The translations under genes were made by a program, and so were the position numbers. 52,768 nt of DNA from a virus (lineage: Duplodnaviria > Caudoviricetes), in the IMG/VR virus record IMGVR_UViG_3300030104_004723, positions 1 through 52,768 of that record. The stretch is one strand, 5' to 3'. Positions 47,305 to 52,768 of this stretch are shown here, in pieces (position 1 is the stretch's first letter; the number at the start of each line of letters is the position of its first letter). Under the pieces are notes generated by a model that searched no databases, was not told the origin of the DNA, and saw nothing but the letters and a program-made list of their open reading frames with translations.

Positions 47305-47606
47305 TATTCTGTCTCCTTAACTTTAGTTAACAATGATGGGCTACATCTCCATTTTACCCATGGTCTTCCTTCTTCTTTTACTCCTACGCTTTTACGATTA
47401 ACTTTTTCAATAATACCTGTGTAAGTTTCTTTACTTAAACCTACACCTTTAACCCAAGATACTTTTTCTCCTATTCTAAAGCCTTCTAAATCTTTAGCTT
47501 GCAAGTAATTTCTTCTATCTTGTATTGCATGTACTAATTCAGTTAATTGTTCTTGACTCATTCCTTTTACATCTTCTAATAAATCTAGAAAGTTATCTAC
47601 TCCCAT
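47304..47606 (-). CDS. Hypothetical protein with SH3-like C-terminal barrel
   Basis: FRIGEKVSW...GIIEKVNRKSVGV...WRCSPSLL; likely start 47606 after GGAGG. Confidence 0.6.
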   Translation of the reverse strand: MGVDNFLDLLEDVKGMSQEQLTELVHAIQDRRNYLQAKDLEGFRIGEKVSWVKGVGLSKETYTGIIEKVNRKSVGVKEEGRPWVKWRCSPSLLTKVKETE

Positions 47607-47760
47607 ACTTATCCTCCAATTCATCGTAGTCTTTTATTATTTTAATAAATTTATCTTTACTTAAACCTGTTGCTGCTCTTGCTCTAGGGTCAAACATGTT
47701 AAAAGCTCCTGATGTTTGAATAGTTACAAAAGCATTAAAGTCTTCTTTACTTATTTCCAT
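47593..47760 (-). CDS. Small protein (DUF5049-like SGAFNMFD motif)
   Basis: IQTSGAFNMFD; likely start 47760 after GGAGG. Confidence 0.55.
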   Translation of the reverse strand: MEISKEDFNAFVTIQTSGAFNMFDPRARAATGLSKDKFIKIIKDYDELEDKYGSR

Positions 47761-47924
47761 TATTCTTCCTCCCACATTAAGTTTACGTTATAAATTTCAG
47801 CTACTTTTTTTAATAATATAGTTGTATAATGTTTTTTATCTGAAGTCATTTCATCTACAAATCCATTTACAAATAAATAATCAATAGCCTCCATACAGTC
47901 TGATTTAGTTACTTTATTGTTCAT
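47760..47924 (-). CDS. Hypothetical protein (54 aa, not in the ORF track)
   Basis: MNNKVTKSDCMEAIDYLF...; SD AGGAG; TAATG coupling. Confidence 0.55.
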   Translation of the reverse strand: MNNKVTKSDCMEAIDYLFVNGFVDEMTSDKKHYTTILLKKVAEIYNVNLMWEEE

Positions 47925-48060
47925 CTTTTCTCCTGATTAATTTCCATTTACCTAATCTACATACGTTTGAATACATTTTAAAGATTACTGCTTGAGTGTC
48001 TAATTCGCCATCTTCCCACAAATCTTCTTCTGGTATTTCTTCCCAATTTTTAAGATTCAT
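47914..48060 (-). CDS. Hypothetical protein (48 aa, not in the ORF track)
   Basis: MNLKNWEEIPEEDLWEDGELD...; SD AAGGAG. Confidence 0.5.
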   Translation of the reverse strand: MNLKNWEEIPEEDLWEDGELDTQAVIFKMYSNVCRLGKWKLIRRKDEQ

Positions 48061-48083
48061 TTAATCTCCTTAATTAAAATTTA

Positions 48084-49101
48084 TGGGAGTGTCAATAGTG
48101 ATGCTAAACAAAGGGCGAAAGGAGACAGACCATGAAAGTCCATCAAAAACCCATAATACACCACGTCTGACCTCACGGTATCAGCTCTCCACTCCCAATT
48201 ATATACAAGCTTTTTTTTCGTTTAATAGTAGTGCCTCAAGGCTTTATCACTCCTAACAACGATTTAACGTTGCGGACTCGCTTTCGCTTCTTTTAGAGGT
48301 TCCTGGAATAAACTTAGTGTAACTTCTCAGGACTGCTACTAAACTAGTTACATACTTGTAATTATTATGAGAGAGACCACGCTTGAGGGTGATTAATCAG
48401 ATTACTGTAATTAACCTCTTAACGAATGGTGGTTTTTGCCGTAACTCTCTCAATTTTATATAAACCTACACTTTTTCCTCGATAGCTTCTGCTTACGGCG
48501 TAAACCGCCTATATCCACTATCTCCCTCCATCTCCTCGGTTTATATCTCATCCGACAAGTTATCACAGACTTATTTGTTTGCTTACCTTGTTTTATTACA
48601 GGGTCCATGGTTCATTACGGCAACAACCTGTAAATTTATGAGAGCCTCACATATTCCTTTGCCTTAGGAGGGCCTCTTAGCTATTTCCTAAGGACTTACA
48701 GGACCAGTTATTGGCTCTCAATTGTTTGCCTAACATCTGTGGACCTTGGTTAGGCGTTTTATAAATTAGCTACTATGTAGCATTGCATGTCCACCTGCTT
48801 TTATAATTATTCTAAATCTAAGGGACAGAACACTTATATGATGTCGAGTGTTATGTAGAAAGTAGGTGAGTAATCCTGTCCCTTTAAGTATATAATCATG
48901 TTCACAGCCAGTCTAGAAGGAATCAACTGTGAAGTTTGCCGTAATTAACGACATTAAAGACTGCTTAATAAGTACCGCCTTAATTGGCTAGTTTTATTAA
49001 GTTCTTCCTGTTTATAGTGTTGTGGCAGTTACTGAGAGGCATCCCTTGTATCCTAGGAGTACAATTCGTTCGCATCGCGGGTGCTTTGTCCAACTATAAA
49101 C
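48084..49101 (-). ncRNA. Tandem array of about 11 stem-closed structured RNA modules
   Basis: No ORF of 60 aa or more; consecutive 6-9 bp closing inverted repeats separated by AT-rich linkers; strand inferred from flanking genes. Confidence 0.6.
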
Positions 49102-49119
49102 TATTTTATGTGACGCTAA

Positions 49120-49263
49120 TCACACCGAATCTTGTTTTCTTTTTTCAGTAAAAGCAAGAATTATACTAGCAACGAGATGTCTTTCTTCCATAGTTAAAAA
49201 CCTATTATTAGTTTTCATTATATCAAAGAACTCCTTCTCGCCCATTATATCTGTGTCTACCAT
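49120..49263 (-). CDS. Hypothetical protein (47 aa, not in the ORF track)
   Basis: MVDTDIMGEKEFFDIMK...; SD GGAGG; overlaps the upstream stop. Confidence 0.45.
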   Translation of the reverse strand: MVDTDIMGEKEFFDIMKTNNRFLTMEERHLVASIILAFTEKRKQDSV

Positions 49264-49745
49264 ATTTCAAATCCTCCACTTTGTATACAGAAATCAGCGA
49301 AAGCTTTTACATTCTCTACATCAAATGGATATTTGTATTCTTTATCTTCTTGGTCTAACTCTACTTCTTTCTGATGTGCTGCAACTGTGCCATCTTCTAT
49401 TAATGATAAAAGTTGAACACCTAGTTTAGCTGCACTATCTGCATTTAATCCTTTACCATCATTATAATGACCTCCATTATGAATATCATCACTTATTAAA
49501 TCAGGACAATGGTAAGCACAGAAATCCCATAAGGGTCTCCACCACCAACAATTATTACGAAAGTATATACCTGGATTAGCTTTATTCCATTCATTATCTT
49601 CTTTCCAGTATTGTTCTTTCTCTTTATCCCAATTCTTGTCCTCTTCTCTTTCAGGCCAAGTCTTATCTTCCCATTTAGTTAGCATTGGAAAATCTTTCCT
49701 TGATTTATTTATTGTAGGGTCTAAACCCGATACATCCATTCCCAT
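49257..49745 (-). CDS. Hypothetical phage protein
   Basis: YFRNNCWWWRPLW and SGGFEIW motifs; SD AGGAG. Confidence 0.7.
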   Translation of the reverse strand: MGMDVSGLDPTINKSRKDFPMLTKWEDKTWPEREEDKNWDKEKEQYWKEDNEWNKANPGIYFRNNCWWWRPLWDFCAYHCPDLISDDIHNGGHYNDGKGLNADSAAKLGVQLLSLIEDGTVAAHQKEVELDQEDKEYKYPFDVENVKAFADFCIQSGGFEIW

Positions 49746-49747
49746 AA

Positions 49748-49993
49748 TTACTCTCCTATGTTATTTATCTTTAAGAAATCCATATGTTCAAAGCCTTTTT
49801 CATCTTTAAACCATACTACATCAAAATCTTTACCTTCTTCAGCTATGCCCATACCATCACATATATGACATAATTGAAAATGTACATTACCACCTCTTGC
49901 ATTAGTAAAATCAACAAAGTCAACACCTTCTCCATCACAAGCTGGGCATTTATCTCCTGTTATATTGCCATGTTTGTCTATTTTTGTATACAT
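49748..49993 (-). CDS. DnaJ-type zinc-finger protein
   Basis: CPACDGEG and CHICDGMG (two CxxCxGxG repeats). Confidence 0.7.
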   Translation of the reverse strand: MYTKIDKHGNITGDKCPACDGEGVDFVDFTNARGGNVHFQLCHICDGMGIAEEGKDFDVVWFKDEKGFEHMDFLKINNIGE

Positions 49994-50195
49994 TATTCTC
50001 CTTTTAATGTTTAATTATAGAAGTGAGCTCTACAAACATATCTCTCTTTAATTTATAGAGCCACTCCGCCTCGAGCCATTCCACTTACAAGCGAAGCAAG
50101 AATGGTATGAGAGACACAATATATCATCATCCCTTTTTTCACTTTCGGCGACTATTATATCCTATTGCTAAATATAATAACGGCTTCGCTTATTG

Positions 50196-50271
50196 TTGCG
50201 GAGGTTGGAATCGAACCGACAATAACTCCTAATATATAAATTAGGTTAGCCTACCAAGGCTTGTCTCCGCA
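50196..50271 (-). tRNA. Degenerate tRNA/tRNA-like RNA (8-nt anticodon loop UUUAUAUA; identity undetermined)
   Basis: TGCGGAG/CTCCGCA acceptor stem, AGCC-TTGGTA-GGCT D arm, CCTAA/TTAGG anticodon stem, GTCGG-TTCGATT-CCAAC T arm; no encoded CCA. Confidence 0.7.
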
Positions 50272-50279
50272 CAGATTAG

Positions 50280-50756
50280 TTAAAAGTTACCATCAGCAAC
50301 TTGGAAACATGTGAGTCCTAATCCATTACGCCACATATCTACGACTTGATTCCTATCGTCAAAGACACAAAGGACATTATACCTTTCCATTATCTCTTTG
50401 CCTATTTCAAACTTGACAAAAGCATCTTTACGGTAATCACCTTCATTACGAAAGACAAATTGGTTAAATTCAGATTCACCTACATACTGATTAACCCAAG
50501 CTTTAGTTAGTTCTGCAACATTTTTAAACTGATGCTCTTCAAATGTTACATTCTCTCTAGCTGATGTAAACACTACATAAATAGGTTCATCATGTATTTT
50601 AGCATAATATCTAACAGTAGCTAATAATACATCTATTACAGGAACATTTGGTTCATCATTGTAAGCTTTATGATACTCGAAAGGTGTTCTTTTACCCTTC
50701 ATTAGTGCGACAGTACCATCAATATCGCATATTATACATTTACTCTTCATCATCAC
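50280..50756 (-). CDS. HAD-family phosphatase related to the 3'-phosphatase domain of T4 polynucleotide kinase
   Basis: CDIDGTVA, FTSAR, RKDAFVK and FDDRNQVVDMWR motifs; no kinase domain. Confidence 0.88.
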   Translation of the reverse strand: MMMKSKCIICDIDGTVALMKGKRTPFEYHKAYNDEPNVPVIDVLLATVRYYAKIHDEPIYVVFTSARENVTFEEHQFKNVAELTKAWVNQYVGESEFNQFVFRNEGDYRKDAFVKFEIGKEIMERYNVLCVFDDRNQVVDMWRNGLGLTCFQVADGNF

Positions 50757-50815
50757 CTCTTTTTAAATTAAACTTTTGTCCCAACCTTAATTATACTAGC
50801 TGGGACATATTATAT

Positions 50816-50998
50816 TTAGCAACTTATGTACTGTAACCACTTAATTACGTACCATATAAACCATATCATACATATATTTATTAGTATGGCTATGTAATAT
50901 GTCATCATTTCAAGTGGGTCTGTTTTGATAATAGATATAATACCTTTTATTAATTTATCTATTCTTAATGTTGCTATTATGGCTCTCAAATAAGACAT
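50816..50998 (-). CDS. Small membrane protein
   Basis: One hydrophobic helix YYIAILINICMIWFIWYVI; SD AAGGAG. Confidence 0.55.
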   Translation of the reverse strand: MSYLRAIIATLRIDKLIKGIISIIKTDPLEMMTYYIAILINICMIWFIWYVIKWLQYISC

Positions 50999-51019
50999 TA
51001 TAGTCTCCTTTTATAAATA

Positions 51020-51789
51020 AATTCTAATAAAGAGTTGAGATTATACTCTTTACGCTAGCTCTTTTGGACTACATTCCATGTTCGCAGGTTTTGTCCGTAT
51101 CCACTTAGTTTGCACTAAGTACACTAGCAGGCTCAGTAGTTATAGACTACCACTCTTAACGATTAAGTTATCTCAGCAACTACTTACATCTAGATAAACG
51201 TGCCCGCCTACCTAGTGCTTTCATTACAAAACATAATATGCCTTGTGAGCATAAAATGCACCTCATTCAGGTTCACTGTGAGGTATTAGAGCCCTTTGCT
51301 CTTAATCGCTGTAGCTGTTTTACATTATGTTATCATTATGTTTAGTTTGACAACGGCATTTATATTGAGTCGCTTACAGAGAAGCTTGCTACCCTATTAA
51401 GGTAGTAAATACTTCGCTCAATACTTCAATAGACACCTGGTGAGTGAATATTAACATGTTTCTGGTGTCGCCCTTTATCACTAAAGGATTAACCATAACA
51501 TTGGAGTACAGCCTTACTACCACAGCTTAGCTTATTACTCCTACGCCTTATCTTATTGTATGTTACCATACTCAACACCATTACCATTTGGTGTATAGCT
51601 CTTCTGTTGCACACAGAGTTACTACATAGACGCTTGTATCTTTGGGCTCAATGAGTGCAATAACATTGTCTTGTTATCACTTTGGGCATATTAACTATGC
51701 TTATCCTAACGACATGATACTGCCGTTTCTTACGAAATCTTTGCATACTTGGGTAACAAGGAGTATGCAATCCCCGTGGCTATAACCTG
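51020..51789 (-). ncRNA. Large (~770 nt) structured non-coding RNA, GOLLD/ROOL-like candidate
   Basis: No ORF of 60 aa or more; about 20 hairpins, long-range helices, GNRA loops on the - strand, 3' terminal pseudoknot. Confidence 0.6.
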
Positions 51790-51939
51790 TTAAAGATTAT
51801 ATTTATGACCATTATCACATGTCCATATGCCATTAACTAATTTCAAGTGTTTAGTCTTATTGTTGACTATTACTTGAACAGTAGTGTTATTACTACCATA
51901 GCTAATGATTTTATGAACATTGAATGTTTTCTTGCTCAT
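51790..51939 (-). CDS. Hypothetical protein (49 aa, not in the ORF track)
   Basis: MSKKTFNVHKIISYGSNN...; AAAGGA upstream. Confidence 0.5.
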   Translation of the reverse strand: MSKKTFNVHKIISYGSNNTTVQVIVNNKTKHLKLVNGIWTCDNGHKYNL

Positions 51940-52007
51940 ATCAATCCTTTTGTTAGTTTTATTTGATTGATTATAGCCTATTAATATATAAATTTTATGT
52001 TTTTAAA

Positions 52008-52036
52008 TAAAGATAAGGGGGAACTATTGTCCCCCC
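52008..52036 (-). terminator. Intrinsic terminator
   Basis: Minus strand GGGGGGA-caatagt-TCCCCCT followed by TATCTTT, just after ORF 52049-52429. Confidence 0.65.
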
Positions 52037-52048
52037 AATCAGTTGTTT

Positions 52049-52429
52049 CTAGAATCCTGCACTTTGAACTGATGCTGATTCTTGCTTGCTTTTAGTTGGA
52101 AACAATTCAACGTAGTGAGCATTGGTAACAATGTCATTCGTTGGTTCATGTGCCCAAGCAACGTTGCCGTGCTCTTCAATGAAAGCCTCTGCCATTTCAT
52201 CAGTCATCTTGTCGAACCAAGCAAAGATTGCAGGGTCGTTAGATGCTTGTGACTTGTCGGCATTGTTGTTGCGAAGAAATGAGATACTATAAGAGTGACC
52301 ACCAATGTTACCATTTGACCTTGGTATCCTGTTGGTAAAGCACCAATCTTCGCCTTTCGTGCCGTCTTTCTTTTGCCAAGTCTTCTTGACTAGTTCTACT
52401 CTGTAATAATCTGTTATAAGTTGTGACAT
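52049..52429 (-). CDS. Hypothetical protein, first gene of the - arm in this window
   Basis: 126-aa ORF with its own terminator; more GC-rich than the bulk of the genome. Confidence 0.65.
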   Translation of the reverse strand: MSQLITDYYRVELVKKTWQKKDGTKGEDWCFTNRIPRSNGNIGGHSYSISFLRNNNADKSQASNDPAIFAWFDKMTDEMAEAFIEEHGNVAWAHEPTNDIVTNAHYVELFPTKSKQESASVQSAGF

Positions 52430-52768
52430 GTCGTGTCCCTTTCTATGTTAAGAGTGTAGGTGCTGTTTATTTATAACAACACGCACACTTGTATGAATAA
52501 AGCTGTGGCTCTGCTATGCTATCGCTGTTTGGATGTAACCGTATTTATATCTGTAACCAAGCATAAGCAAAGCCTATTAAATGTTATTAGATGGTAGTCT
52601 CAACGAGCAAACCAAGCGTCTTTGCACCTATGCTCTATTACAGAGGAACGGCTCTAACATCTAATTGAATTGAATTATAACTAAAACGCATATAAGAAAA
52701 ATGTTTTTAGGGTGGCGTATAAGGATAAATAAGACCTCCACTAAAATCCCCCAATTTTTGAAACCTTT

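What the first reader, a model, noticed from the sequence alone, without database searches (positions are those of the whole stretch)
51020..51789. ~770-nt densely paired RNA with long-range helices and a terminal pseudoknot: candidate GOLLD/ROOL-like giant RNA
Seen: about 20 hairpins; long-range helices AACGGCA (51352-51358)/TGCCGTT (51721-51727) and AAACATAAT (51229-51237)/ATTATGTTT (51335-51343) define domains; GNRA-capped stems on the - strand (GTATG-GTAA-CATAC, ACTTAGT-GCAA-ACTAAGT); the last hairpin (51028-51052) has loop AUAAUCUCA complementary to UGAGAU at 51170-51175. Established: GOLLD and ROOL are large phage-associated RNAs, often near tRNAs, that assemble into RNA-only cages. The 3' AUCUCA pseudoknot and CAAAAG segment match my recollection of their 3' domains (unverified). 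It could be a divergent member or a new class.
Basis: partly seen in the sequence, partly recalled or inferred. Interest (0 to 1): 0.8.

Follow-up and report, generated by a model that had tools for sequence, protein, structure and literature searches.

The report
Phage GOLLD RNA, compact marine subtype

Summary
The gene-free stretch is a real, large structured RNA on the minus strand, and it belongs to a known family. Rfam's GOLLD model (RF02032) matches window 51423..51032 end to end at 171 bits (cut-off 150, E 2e-46); ROOL gives no match at E<=1. The conserved RNA spans about 51740..51028 (~713 nt). It has a ~317-nt 5' domain, a 53-nt linker and the canonical 3' domain.

Seventeen full-length relatives from uncultured viral contigs support the fold. 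Of 148 consensus pairs, 104 show compensatory changes, and 0 of 500 shuffles reach this.

Its partner for the 3'-terminal loop shows no covariation.

This lineage has a single P21 hairpin, with no separate P21b. The same is reported for the solved 700-nt Streptococcus agalactiae GOLLD dodecamer.

In 8 of 21 related loci, as here, GOLLD is followed by a stand-alone PNKP-type 3'-phosphatase gene. A tRNA-Met lies in 8 of the 21; the window has a tRNA-Met-like gene instead.

Marine metatranscriptome contigs from three studies cover part of the RNA.

Verdict: new member of a known kind. This scan has met GOLLD on other DNA many times. Function is still unknown; cage formation is inferred.

The parts
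51028..51740 (-). Conserved GOLLD RNA (about 713 nt), from the first conserved hairpin to just after the 3'-terminal hairpin
   Evidence: Sequence conservation with relatives begins at query positions 46-89 and ends at 765-771 of the 776-nt query 51795..51020 in the full-length hits. Profile hits are, the Rfam match, and covariation.
51032..51423 (-). 3' domain: match to Rfam RF02032 (GOLLD)
   Evidence: 171 bits, cut-off 150, E 2.3e-46, model positions 1-416 of 416, not truncated.
51424..51740 (-). 5' domain (~317 nt), outside the Rfam model
   Evidence: Aligned in 17 full-length relatives. Consensus helices 2-12 lie here, 91.6-100% paired, each with compensatory changes.
51726..51737 (-). 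First conserved hairpin (my label P0): UUUC-GUAA-GAAA
   Evidence: In relatives the stem differs (AUUC/GAAU, UGUC/GACA, UUGUA/UACAA, UUGC/GCAA) under GUAA, UUCG, GCAA or UUAG loops. This was read from the rows. It was not counted with the pair tool because MAFFT puts the stems out of register. In L126 and L128 a tRNA gene ends directly upstream of it.
51710..51725 (-). Local hairpin CGGCA-GUAUCA-UGUCG; its loop GUAUC (51720..51716) pairs with GAUAC (51640..51636), forming a pseudoknot
   Evidence: stem 95.0% paired, 2 of 5 pairs with compensatory change. Loop pairing 96.3% paired, 2 of 5 pairs compensatory. Slid controls 14-46% paired.
51362..51424 (-). Long hairpin that opens the 3' domain (Rfam model 1-62; P13/P14 by my reading of the published numbering)
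   Evidence: alignment. Helices 13 and 14: 93.1% and 99.0% paired, 16 of 22 pairs compensatory.
51309..51361 (-). Variable linker (J13/15 in the papers' naming), 53 nt, with no tRNA inside
   Evidence: Linker lengths in relatives are 46-84 nt and not alignable. ARAGORN finds no tRNA here.
51160..51308 (-). Long-range helix CGAUUAAG/CUUAAUCG (51308..51301 with 51167..51160). It encloses hairpins P18 (51284..51260), P19/P20 (51258..51231, loop CACAA 51246..51242) and P21
   Evidence: Marked as a pseudoknot helix in the Rfam consensus. Helix 15: 96.1% paired, 6 of 8 pairs compensatory.
51176..51227 (-). P21 as one continuous hairpin (outer 51227..51223/51180..51176, inner 51218..51186) capped by loop GGCA (51204..51201). 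There is no second inner hairpin
   Evidence: 17-position gap at Rfam model 250-266. Helices 19 and 20. The GGCA loop is in 13 of 16 distinct rows under four different closing pairs; the other 3 rows have UCGC (2) or a GAUC-containing loop (1).
51135..51151 (-). P22 hairpin GGUAGU-CUAUA-ACUACU
   Evidence: Helix 21: 93.8% paired, 5 of 6 pairs compensatory.
51053..51129 (-). P23 (51129..51122/51060..51053). It encloses P24 (51121..51102, GCAA loop 51113..51110), the invariant GUGGAUA, P26 (51096..51066) and the CAAAAG segment (51066..51061)
   Evidence: helices 22-25. The L24 loop is GNRA in 16 of 16 distinct rows (plus rows L043 and L122 read).
51030..51050 (-). 3'-terminal hairpin P27, loop AUAAUCUCA (51044..51036)
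   Evidence: helix 26, 6 of 6 pairs compensatory. The loop is [A/G]UAAUCUCA in 14 of 16 distinct rows.
51741..51770 (-). Window-specific upstream hairpin UUGCAUACU-(12 nt)-AGUAUGCAA; possibly a 5' leader
   Evidence: Seen in the MFE fold. It has no counterpart in the 17 aligned relatives.
51796..51825 (-). Sigma-70-like promoter match TGGACA-18-TATAAT (11 of 12); weak evidence only
   Evidence: The scan found 8 such sites in the region against 9.2 +/- 2.9 in shuffles, so there is no enrichment. It lies inside the 3' end of the 49-aa ORF 51790-51939.
50280..50756 (-). Downstream gene: stand-alone PNKP-type HAD 3'-phosphatase (158 aa, DIDGT motif), with no kinase domain
   Evidence: Pfam PF25109 E 8.6e-40. 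PHROG 505 matches profile positions 159-295 of 295 only. Translation. Homologues lie directly downstream of GOLLD in 8 of 21 related loci.
50195..50271 (-). tRNA-like gene 8 nt after the phosphatase gene, with an 8-nt A/U anticodon loop
   Evidence: ARAGORN 'tRNA-???'. Below the Rfam tRNA cut-off. Aligns with the tRNA-Met(CAU) of relative L131 except in the anticodon arm.

Best explanation
Window ~51740..51028, minus strand, is the gene for a GOLLD RNA (Rfam RF02032) of an uncultured marine phage.

Shown:
- It matches the family model over its whole length.
- It has a separately folding 5' domain, a short unstructured linker and the canonical 3' domain.
- The fold is kept by compensatory changes in 16 distinct related sequences.
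- Sequence identical to it occurs in contigs of marine RNA libraries.

Inferred from solved GOLLD structures (Kretsch et al. 2025, PMC12286853; review PMC12990946): the transcript folds on its own and assembles with copies of itself into a closed two-half-shell RNA cage, with the linker facing inward. The elements those papers name as holding the two halves together are present and under selection here:
- a P21 loop with a palindromic core (GGCA here; UCGC in two relatives);
- a GNRA loop on P24.

This RNA has one P21 hairpin and is ~713 nt. The 700-nt Streptococcus agalactiae GOLLD dodecamer lacks P21b, while the 833-nt env-38 14-mer has P21a and P21b. A 12-mer-like assembly is therefore my guess; the copy number is not shown.

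What the cage does is unknown for the whole family. My odds: GOLLD member 0.97; forms a homo-oligomeric cage 0.65; dodecamer rather than another number 0.35.
For: - Rfam: 171 bits vs cut-off 150, full model.
- Folding: z-score -5.6.
- Relatives: 17 full-length relatives aligned.
- Covariation: 148 consensus pairs, 94.9% of 2362 cells paired vs 78.9% in shuffles. 104 pairs have compensatory change vs 52.3 +/- 4.0 in shuffles, with 0 of 500 shuffles as high on all five measures. Slid controls are 33-42% paired.
- Strand: several invariant G-U pairs (columns 169-285, 490-517, 715-768, 827-848) would be A-C on the other strand, which fixes the strand and the RNA level.
- P21: single hairpin shown by the model gap at 250-266. 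A Streptococcus GOLLD (L176, 276.8 bits) also aligns with only one inner P21 hairpin. This fits the review's statement that Sag GOLLD lacks P21b.
- Loops: L21 is GGCA in 13 of 16 distinct rows under four closing pairs, and L24 is GNRA in 16 of 16. Kretsch et al. report an L21a GC/CG switch and self-kissing bridges between half-shells. The review reports L21-L21'' and L24-P21'' contacts in Sag.
- Phage setting: the record is a 94%-complete virus contig with portal, major head, primase-helicase and Sak4 genes.
- tRNA link: tRNA-Met lies near GOLLD on the same strand in 8 of 21 related loci, abutting its 5' end in L126.
- RNA libraries: contigs cover 51275-51723 with 0 differences (X7, depth 29.6) and 51275-51713 (X9). 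Relatives' contigs cover 51093-51192 plus 51347-51725 (X12) and 51403-51710 (X16). These come from three studies.
Against: - No experiment or structure exists for this sequence.
- Oligomerisation is carried over from two solved relatives that are not alignable to it by sequence in the 5' domain. MAFFT and the subgroup profile do not pick up L176.
- 6 of 14 related loci fall below the Rfam cut-off, so the lineage sits at the edge of the model.
- The RNA libraries may contain DNA, as the tool itself warns. Contigs give no strand or ends.
- Transcript ends are not mapped, and the promoter-like site is no better than chance.
- The partner of loop L20 in the linker, a bridge in both solved structures, could not be identified consistently here. 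The best complement is only 2-5 nt across 14 distinct rows.
Confidence: 0.88

Rival explanations
1. It is a GOLLD-family RNA, but in this phage lineage its role is tied to RNA end-healing and tRNA. GOLLD, the stand-alone 3'-phosphatase and the tRNA-Met(-like) gene would form one functional cassette. Possible forms: the RNA holds or shields the phage tRNA or a tRNA decoy, or it is itself processed from a common transcript whose ends the phosphatase trims. A cage may or may not be needed.
For: - The order GOLLD -> PNKP-type phosphatase is kept in 8 of 21 related loci, while the phosphatase has diverged to 41-68% identity.
- In L121, L127 and L129 tRNA-Met follows within about 20 nt of the phosphatase gene, as the tRNA-like gene does in the window.
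- tRNA genes abut the GOLLD 5' end in L126 and L128.
- A Pistol self-cleaving ribozyme lies ~440 nt upstream of GOLLD in L124.
- Kretsch et al. discuss tRNAs as possible cage cargo.
Against: - The phosphatase neighbour occurs only inside this one phage lineage: 8 of 258 loci searched, all in the subgroup. Inherited gene order explains it as well.
- 13 of 21 related loci show no phosphatase in the DNA held.
- No kinase or RNA ligase was found among the neighbours scanned.
- No biochemical link is known. A search for 'GOLLD RNA' with 'polynucleotide kinase' found 0 papers.
Confidence: 0.1
2. It is a new class of giant RNA, or a ROOL relative, that only resembles GOLLD.
For: - The 5' ~317 nt lie outside the Rfam model.
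- The score is only 21 bits above the cut-off.
- 6 of 14 relatives fall below the cut-off.
Against: - The full-length model match has E 2e-46.
- All 3'-domain helices except one inner hairpin are present and covarying.
- ROOL and every other family give nothing at E<=1 in 47500-52768, apart from two weak unrelated hits.
- The 5' region of GOLLD is described as variable.
- More distant viral GOLLDs that have both P21 hairpins share 5'-domain motifs with it.
Confidence: 0.02
3. It is a DNA-level element (origin, packaging site) or a group I/II intron, not a stand-alone RNA.
For: It lies near one end of the linear record, in the region between the divergent structural and replication gene blocks.
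Against: - Compensatory changes with strand-specific G-U pairs point to RNA.
- No intron family matched.
- There are no flanking exon halves.
- RNA-library contigs cover it.
Confidence: 0.01

Closest known systems
GOLLD RNA family (Rfam RF02032; Weinberg et al. 2009, recalled and cited through PMC12286853, since the paper itself is not held)
   Same: - Full-length match to the family model above its cut-off.
- Conserved 3' domain with CUAAU, GUGGAUA, CAAAAG and the UAAUCUCA terminal loop.
- Variable 5' domain and variable linker.
- Phage-borne, with tRNA genes nearby.
   Different: - One inner hairpin of P21 is absent.
- The linker is short (53 nt) and holds no tRNA.
- The score is modest (171 bits, against 276.8 for a Streptococcus member).
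Streptococcus agalactiae GOLLD, 700 nt, PDB 9L0R, dodecamer (as described in review PMC12990946; passages read)
   Same: - Similar length (~713 vs 700 nt).
- Lacks a separate P21b, so it has a single P21 loop. In Sag that loop self-kisses between the two planes.
- GNRA loop on P24.
   Different: - The 5' domains are not alignable by sequence to a Streptococcus GOLLD (L176).
- Whether P9 and P11a-c are also missing here could not be mapped without the published figure.
- The host and phage type are unrelated.
env-38 GOLLD, 833 nt, PDB 9MEE, D7 tetradecamer (Kretsch et al. 2025, PMC12286853; section 7 and passages read)
   Same: - Marine metagenomic origin.
- tRNA-Met neighbourhood, seen here in the relatives.
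- Two-domain plan with an inward-facing linker.
- Palindromic GC/CG core in the P21a-type loop.
   Different: - env-38 is 120 nt longer.
- It has both P21a and P21b, and so two self-kissing bridges, plus a larger 5' domain (420 nt vs ~317).
ROOL RNA (the other cage-forming phage RNA)
   Same: Large, ornate, phage-borne, near tRNAs.
   Different: No match to any Rfam family other than GOLLD at E<=1 in 47500-52768 apart from two weak unrelated hits. The papers describe ROOL's sequence and fold as distinct.

Membership tests
GOLLD RNA (Rfam RF02032) | Scores at or above the curated gathering cut-off of the family covariance model | tested here: met
   171 bits vs 150, E 2.3e-46, model 1-416 of 416, no truncation.
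GOLLD RNA (Rfam RF02032) | Conserved 3'-domain helices, including the long-range (pseudoknot-marked) helix, P22-P27 and the conserved single-stranded motifs | tested here: met
   Helices 13-26 are 80.6-100% paired. All have compensatory changes except the weak 3-pair helix 16. GUGGAUA and UAAUCUCA are near-invariant. One inner P21 hairpin is absent, as reported for Sag GOLLD.
GOLLD RNA (Rfam RF02032) | A structured but less conserved 5' domain of several hundred nt, giving a total of about 700-830 nt or more | tested here: met
   ~317-nt 5' domain with covarying helices 2-12 and the P1 pseudoknot. The total is ~713 nt.
GOLLD RNA (Rfam RF02032) | Variable linker between the first 3'-domain hairpin and the rest | tested here: met
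   53 nt here and 46-84 nt in relatives, not alignable.
GOLLD RNA (Rfam RF02032) | Encoded in phages or prophages, often beside tRNA genes | tested here: met
   Virus record with portal and head genes. A tRNA-like gene lies 757 nt downstream. tRNA-Met is present in 8 of 21 related loci.
GOLLD RNA (Rfam RF02032) | Made as a stable RNA, with levels rising in lytic growth | tested here: inconclusive
   Contigs from RNA libraries of three studies cover 51275-51725 and parts of 51093-51192. Contigs show neither strand, ends nor level, and DNA carry-over is possible.
GOLLD RNA (Rfam RF02032) | Self-assembly into a dihedral RNA-only cage | not testable with these tools
   Only indirect evidence: the L21 palindromic loop and the L24 GNRA loop are conserved.
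Compact 'Sag-type' GOLLD (lacks P9, P11a-c, P21b; dodecamer) | No separate P21b hairpin | tested here: met
   Gap at model 250-266. There is a single continuous P21 hairpin in 18 of 18 aligned rows. L176 (Streptococcus) also has one inner hairpin.
Compact 'Sag-type' GOLLD (lacks P9, P11a-c, P21b; dodecamer) | 5' domain of the Sag architecture (P2-P8, P10-P13) | tested here: inconclusive
   The 5' domain of a Streptococcus GOLLD has a similar length (~316 nt between the tRNA and the 3' domain in L176). There is no usable sequence alignment. The published helix map, a figure, could not be seen.
ROOL RNA | Match to the Rfam ROOL model | tested here: not met
   No ROOL hit at the gathering cut-off over the whole window, nor at E<=1 in 47500-52768.

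The most novel reading that the evidence does not exclude
In this uncultured marine phage lineage, GOLLD heads a conserved cassette: GOLLD, then a stand-alone RNA 3'-phosphatase, then a tRNA-Met or a tRNA-Met-derived mimic. The boldest reading not excluded is that the cage works with RNA end-healing on tRNAs. For example, it could shelter or present the phage tRNA or decoy during attack by host anticodon nucleases, while the phosphatase repairs cut ends. That would give the function-less GOLLD class its first protein partner and a testable job.
Probability: 0.08. Interest if true: 0.75.

Novelty: new member of a known kind. Interest (0 to 1): 0.27.

Why it matters
GOLLD is one of very few natural RNAs known to build protein-free cages, and its function is unknown. 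This member adds little in kind.

It does supply a set of 16 distinct, well-covarying sequences of a compact, single-P21-hairpin form from marine phages. Part of that set falls below the Rfam cut-off. That could help relate helix content to cage size (12 vs 14 copies).

It also supplies a conserved phosphatase and tRNA neighbourhood that can be tested for a functional link.

Tried and rejected
1. blastn (distant mode) of the 811-nt region against 50,697 phage records found no match. tblastn of the portal gave only 4 weak hits at <27% identity. No cultured relative or host could be named.

2. The subgroup 5'-domain pattern found 0 stretches in genome contigs. The general 3' pattern found at least 120 stretches. 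I estimate that about as many are expected by chance in 596 Gb. Of the 4 loci I tested with Rfam, only 1 (L176) is GOLLD. None of the 120 matched the subgroup profile. I therefore draw no host range.

3. PHROGs on the 3585-aa, 1223-aa and 727-aa proteins gave 0 families.

4. I looked for a kissing partner of loop L20 in the linker. The best complements are 2-5 nt, with no consistent register. A GUGA/UGGA/UGU motif just before the AAAAC run fits some rows only; this is my reading of the rows.

5. An alternative pairing, GUUGUC (51357..51352) with GAUAAC (51172..51167), is 81% paired, with 2 of 6 pairs compensatory. Between 14 and 246 of 500 shuffles reach the observed values. It is left open.

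6. RNAalifold paired columns 46-48 with 816-818. I rejected this in favour of the local hairpin.

7. Read laying: no contig of the four RNA runs lay on 50234-51037 or 51775-52100. The upstream ends of the RNA contigs (51723, 51713, 51725, 51710) are only a weak hint of a 5' end near 51725. I laid no DNA run beside them.

8. The promoter and terminator scan found 8 promoter-like sites against 9.2 expected, so it is not informative. The terminator-like hairpin at 52036..52017 lies upstream of the 49-aa ORF, not after the RNA.

9. Papers PMC7549688 (Morgado 2020) and PMC4140389 (Weinberg 2009) are not held. What I say of them comes from other papers' text or from recall. The supplements of Kretsch et al. 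(alignments, covariation tables) were not opened, and they may already list single-P21-hairpin variants.

10. The search for 'GOLLD' with 'phosphatase' returned only an author-name artefact.
Full report
**What is there.** Window 51020-51789 contains no ORF longer than 47 aa. It is richer in G+C (0.384) than four coding stretches of equal length that I folded as local controls (0.289-0.327). The minus-strand RNA 51795..51020 folds to -218.7 kcal/mol, against -188.9 +/- 5.3 for 20 dinucleotide shuffles (z -5.6). The plus strand folds less well (-189.6).

A scan of the whole window against all 4227 Rfam families at curated cut-offs returns one hit. It is GOLLD (RF02032) on the minus strand, 51423..51032, at 171 bits (cut-off 150) and E 2.3e-46. 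It covers model positions 1-416 of 416 without truncation (repeated). A permissive scan of 47500-52768 (E<=1) adds only two weak unrelated hits. It finds no ROOL and no intron. The Rfam model covers only the conserved 3' half of GOLLD, so the remaining ~370 nt of the finding needed their own evidence.

**Relatives.**
- The window is a whole IMG/VR virus record of 52,768 bp, rated 94% complete.
- blastn against cultured-phage records found nothing.
Two subgroup motifs gave 11 and 18 stretches.
- nhmmer with the window's RNA found 28 loci at E<=1e-3 among 138.
- I aligned the window with the 17 close relatives that are full length (alignment A1, 18 rows, 16 distinct). I left out 4 truncated loci (L125, L128, L130, L132) and 7 distant ones (L041, L049, L072, L092, L094, L110, L113).
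- Conservation starts around window 51740 and ends around 51028.
- Eight of 14 of these loci pass the Rfam GOLLD cut-off (163.5-192.7 bits) and six do not. The lineage therefore sits at the edge of the model.
- A profile built from A1 hit no locus among the 120 fetched from bacterial and archaeal genomes.

**Fold.** RNAalifold on A1 predicts 148 pairs, of which 105 have at least one compensatory change. Counted independently:
- 94.9% of 2362 cells are standard pairs, against 78.9% in shuffles.
- 104 pairs have changes on both sides, against 52.3 +/- 4.0 in shuffles.
- 0 of 500 shuffles reach the observed value on any of the five measures.
- Sliding the partners by 1-3 columns drops pairing to 33-42%.

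The tool warns that related sequences can beat shuffles without structure; the slid control and the number of pair types argue against that here. Support holds in the 5' domain (helices 2-12) as well as the 3' domain (helices 13-26). Invariant G-U pairs fix the strand.

At the 5' end a small hairpin (51737..51726) changes its stem under GUAA, UUCG or GCAA loops (rows, read by eye). It is followed by hairpin CGGCA/UGUCG. The loop of that hairpin, GUAUC, pairs with GAUAC 76 nt downstream, forming a pseudoknot. Both parts are about 95% paired with compensatory changes.

All the complementary segments exist at the stated coordinates, but the relatives do not keep them.
- AACGGCA/UGCCGUU is 43% and 74% paired in its two parts. 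AAACAUAAU/AUUAUGUUU is 52% paired. Each uses a strand that belongs to a better-supported local helix.
- The terminal-loop pairing AUCUCA/UGAGAU is 87.5% paired. It has no compensatory change, and a central G-to-A breaks it in 7 of 16 rows.
- In the solved env-38 structure the terminal loop L27 is said to pair with P23 and J24/26, not with this segment. I could not check that in 3D.
- The two GNRA-capped stems and the terminal hairpin are confirmed.

**Which kind of GOLLD.** Relative to the Rfam consensus, the window lacks 17 positions (model 250-266), one of the two inner hairpins of P21. All 18 aligned rows have a single continuous P21 hairpin. Seven more distant viral GOLLDs have both hairpins.

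The review PMC12990946 (passages) states two things. The 700-nt Streptococcus agalactiae GOLLD lacks P9, P11a-c and P21b and forms a dodecamer. The 833-nt env-38 RNA has them and forms a 14-mer. A Streptococcus porcorum GOLLD that I fetched (L176, 276.8 bits) also aligns with one inner P21 hairpin. It has about 316 nt between an upstream tRNA and the 3' domain.

The window's RNA (~713 nt, 5' domain ~317 nt) therefore resembles the compact form in size and in P21. Its 5' domain cannot be aligned to L176 by sequence. My assignment of helix numbers P13-P27 is inferred from the papers' text and the Rfam structure line, not from their figures.

**Contacts.**
- The single P21 loop is GGCA in 13 of 16 distinct rows under four different closing pairs. 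It is UCGC in two rows and GAUC-containing in one. This mirrors the GC/CG switch that Kretsch et al. report for the self-kissing L21a bridge between half-shells.
- The P24 loop is GNRA in all 16 rows. In Sag GOLLD, L24 docks on P21 of the other plane.
- These features are the basis for inferring cage assembly. The copy number is a guess.
- I could not find a consistent linker partner for L20.

**Setting.** On the minus strand the order is as follows:
- a 126-aa ORF;
- a terminator-like hairpin (52036..52017);
- a 49-aa ORF (homologue in L135);
- GOLLD;
- a 60-aa hydrophobic ORF;
- a 158-aa PNKP-type HAD phosphatase with DIDGT and no kinase domain;
- 8 nt later, a tRNA-like gene with an 8-nt A/U anticodon loop;
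- further on, Sak4, primase-helicase and other replication genes.

The tRNA-like gene aligns with the tRNA-Met(CAU) of relative L131 except in the anticodon arm. The related loci belong to the same phage lineage, sharing portal, primase-helicase and Sak4.

A phosphatase homologue (41-68% identity) lies directly downstream of GOLLD in 8 of 21 related loci. It occurs in no other of the 258 loci held. tRNA-Met lies on the same strand near GOLLD in 8 of 21 loci. It directly abuts the GOLLD 5' end in L126, and a tRNA with anticodon UUA does so in L128. This fits the known tRNA association of GOLLD. The phosphatase link is lineage-specific and may be inherited order only.

**Expression.** The one run search found 8 RNA-library rows holding part of the 2-kb stretch. 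I laid four of them, from three studies.
- Two contigs are identical to the window over 51275-51723 (depth 29.6) and 51275-51713 (depth 16).
- Two contigs of relatives cover 51093-51192 plus 51347-51725, and 51403-51710.
- Contigs cannot show strand, ends or level, and DNA may be present in such libraries. This counts as presence in RNA libraries, not proof of a discrete transcript.
- The common upstream ends near 51710-51725 are a weak hint of a 5' end.
- The sigma-70-like match at 51825..51796 is no better than chance.

**Verdict.** The scan has met GOLLD often on other DNA. 11,892 notes in at least 2,874 genomes hold the word, among them follow-ups on GOLLD RNAs of other phages. The modest points of interest are the compact single-P21-hairpin form in marine phages, the partial miss by the Rfam cut-off, and the GOLLD-phosphatase-tRNA cassette.

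Noticed in passing
window 50195-50271 (-): A tRNA-shaped gene with an 8-nt all-A/U anticodon loop. ARAGORN cannot name it, and it falls below the Rfam tRNA cut-off. It aligns closely with the tRNA-Met(CAU) of a related phage (L131) except in the anticodon arm, so it looks like a remodelled tRNA-Met.
   Followed up: partly
window 50280-50756 (-): Stand-alone PNKP-type HAD 3'-phosphatase (DIDGT motif) without a kinase domain. It lies between GOLLD and the tRNA-like gene. The same order is seen in 8 of 21 related loci.
   Followed up: partly
L124 4845-4907 (-): Pistol self-cleaving ribozyme hit (RF02679, 49 bits, cut-off 34.5) about 440 nt upstream of that phage's GOLLD.
   Followed up: no
L128 648-737 (-): tRNA with anticodon UUA (would read the stop codon UAA) directly upstream of that phage's GOLLD, with a tRNA-Met further upstream.
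   Followed up: no
L136, L135, L122 (alignment A1 columns 294-352): A shared ~60-nt insertion in the GOLLD 5' domain of three relatives, absent from the window.
   Followed up: no
window 51322-51343 (-): The linker holds a direct repeat, CAUAAUG twice. It is complementary to the 3' strand of the conserved P19 hairpin.
   Followed up: partly
window 52440-52768: About 330 nt with only one 45-aa ORF at the right end of the record, between the divergent gene blocks. Not examined beyond the Rfam scans, which found nothing there.
   Followed up: no
L133 656-735 (-): An 80-nt hit to the tmRNA model spanning model positions 1-374 (49.6 bits, cut-off 47). It is probably a tRNA-like element rather than a tmRNA.
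   Followed up: no
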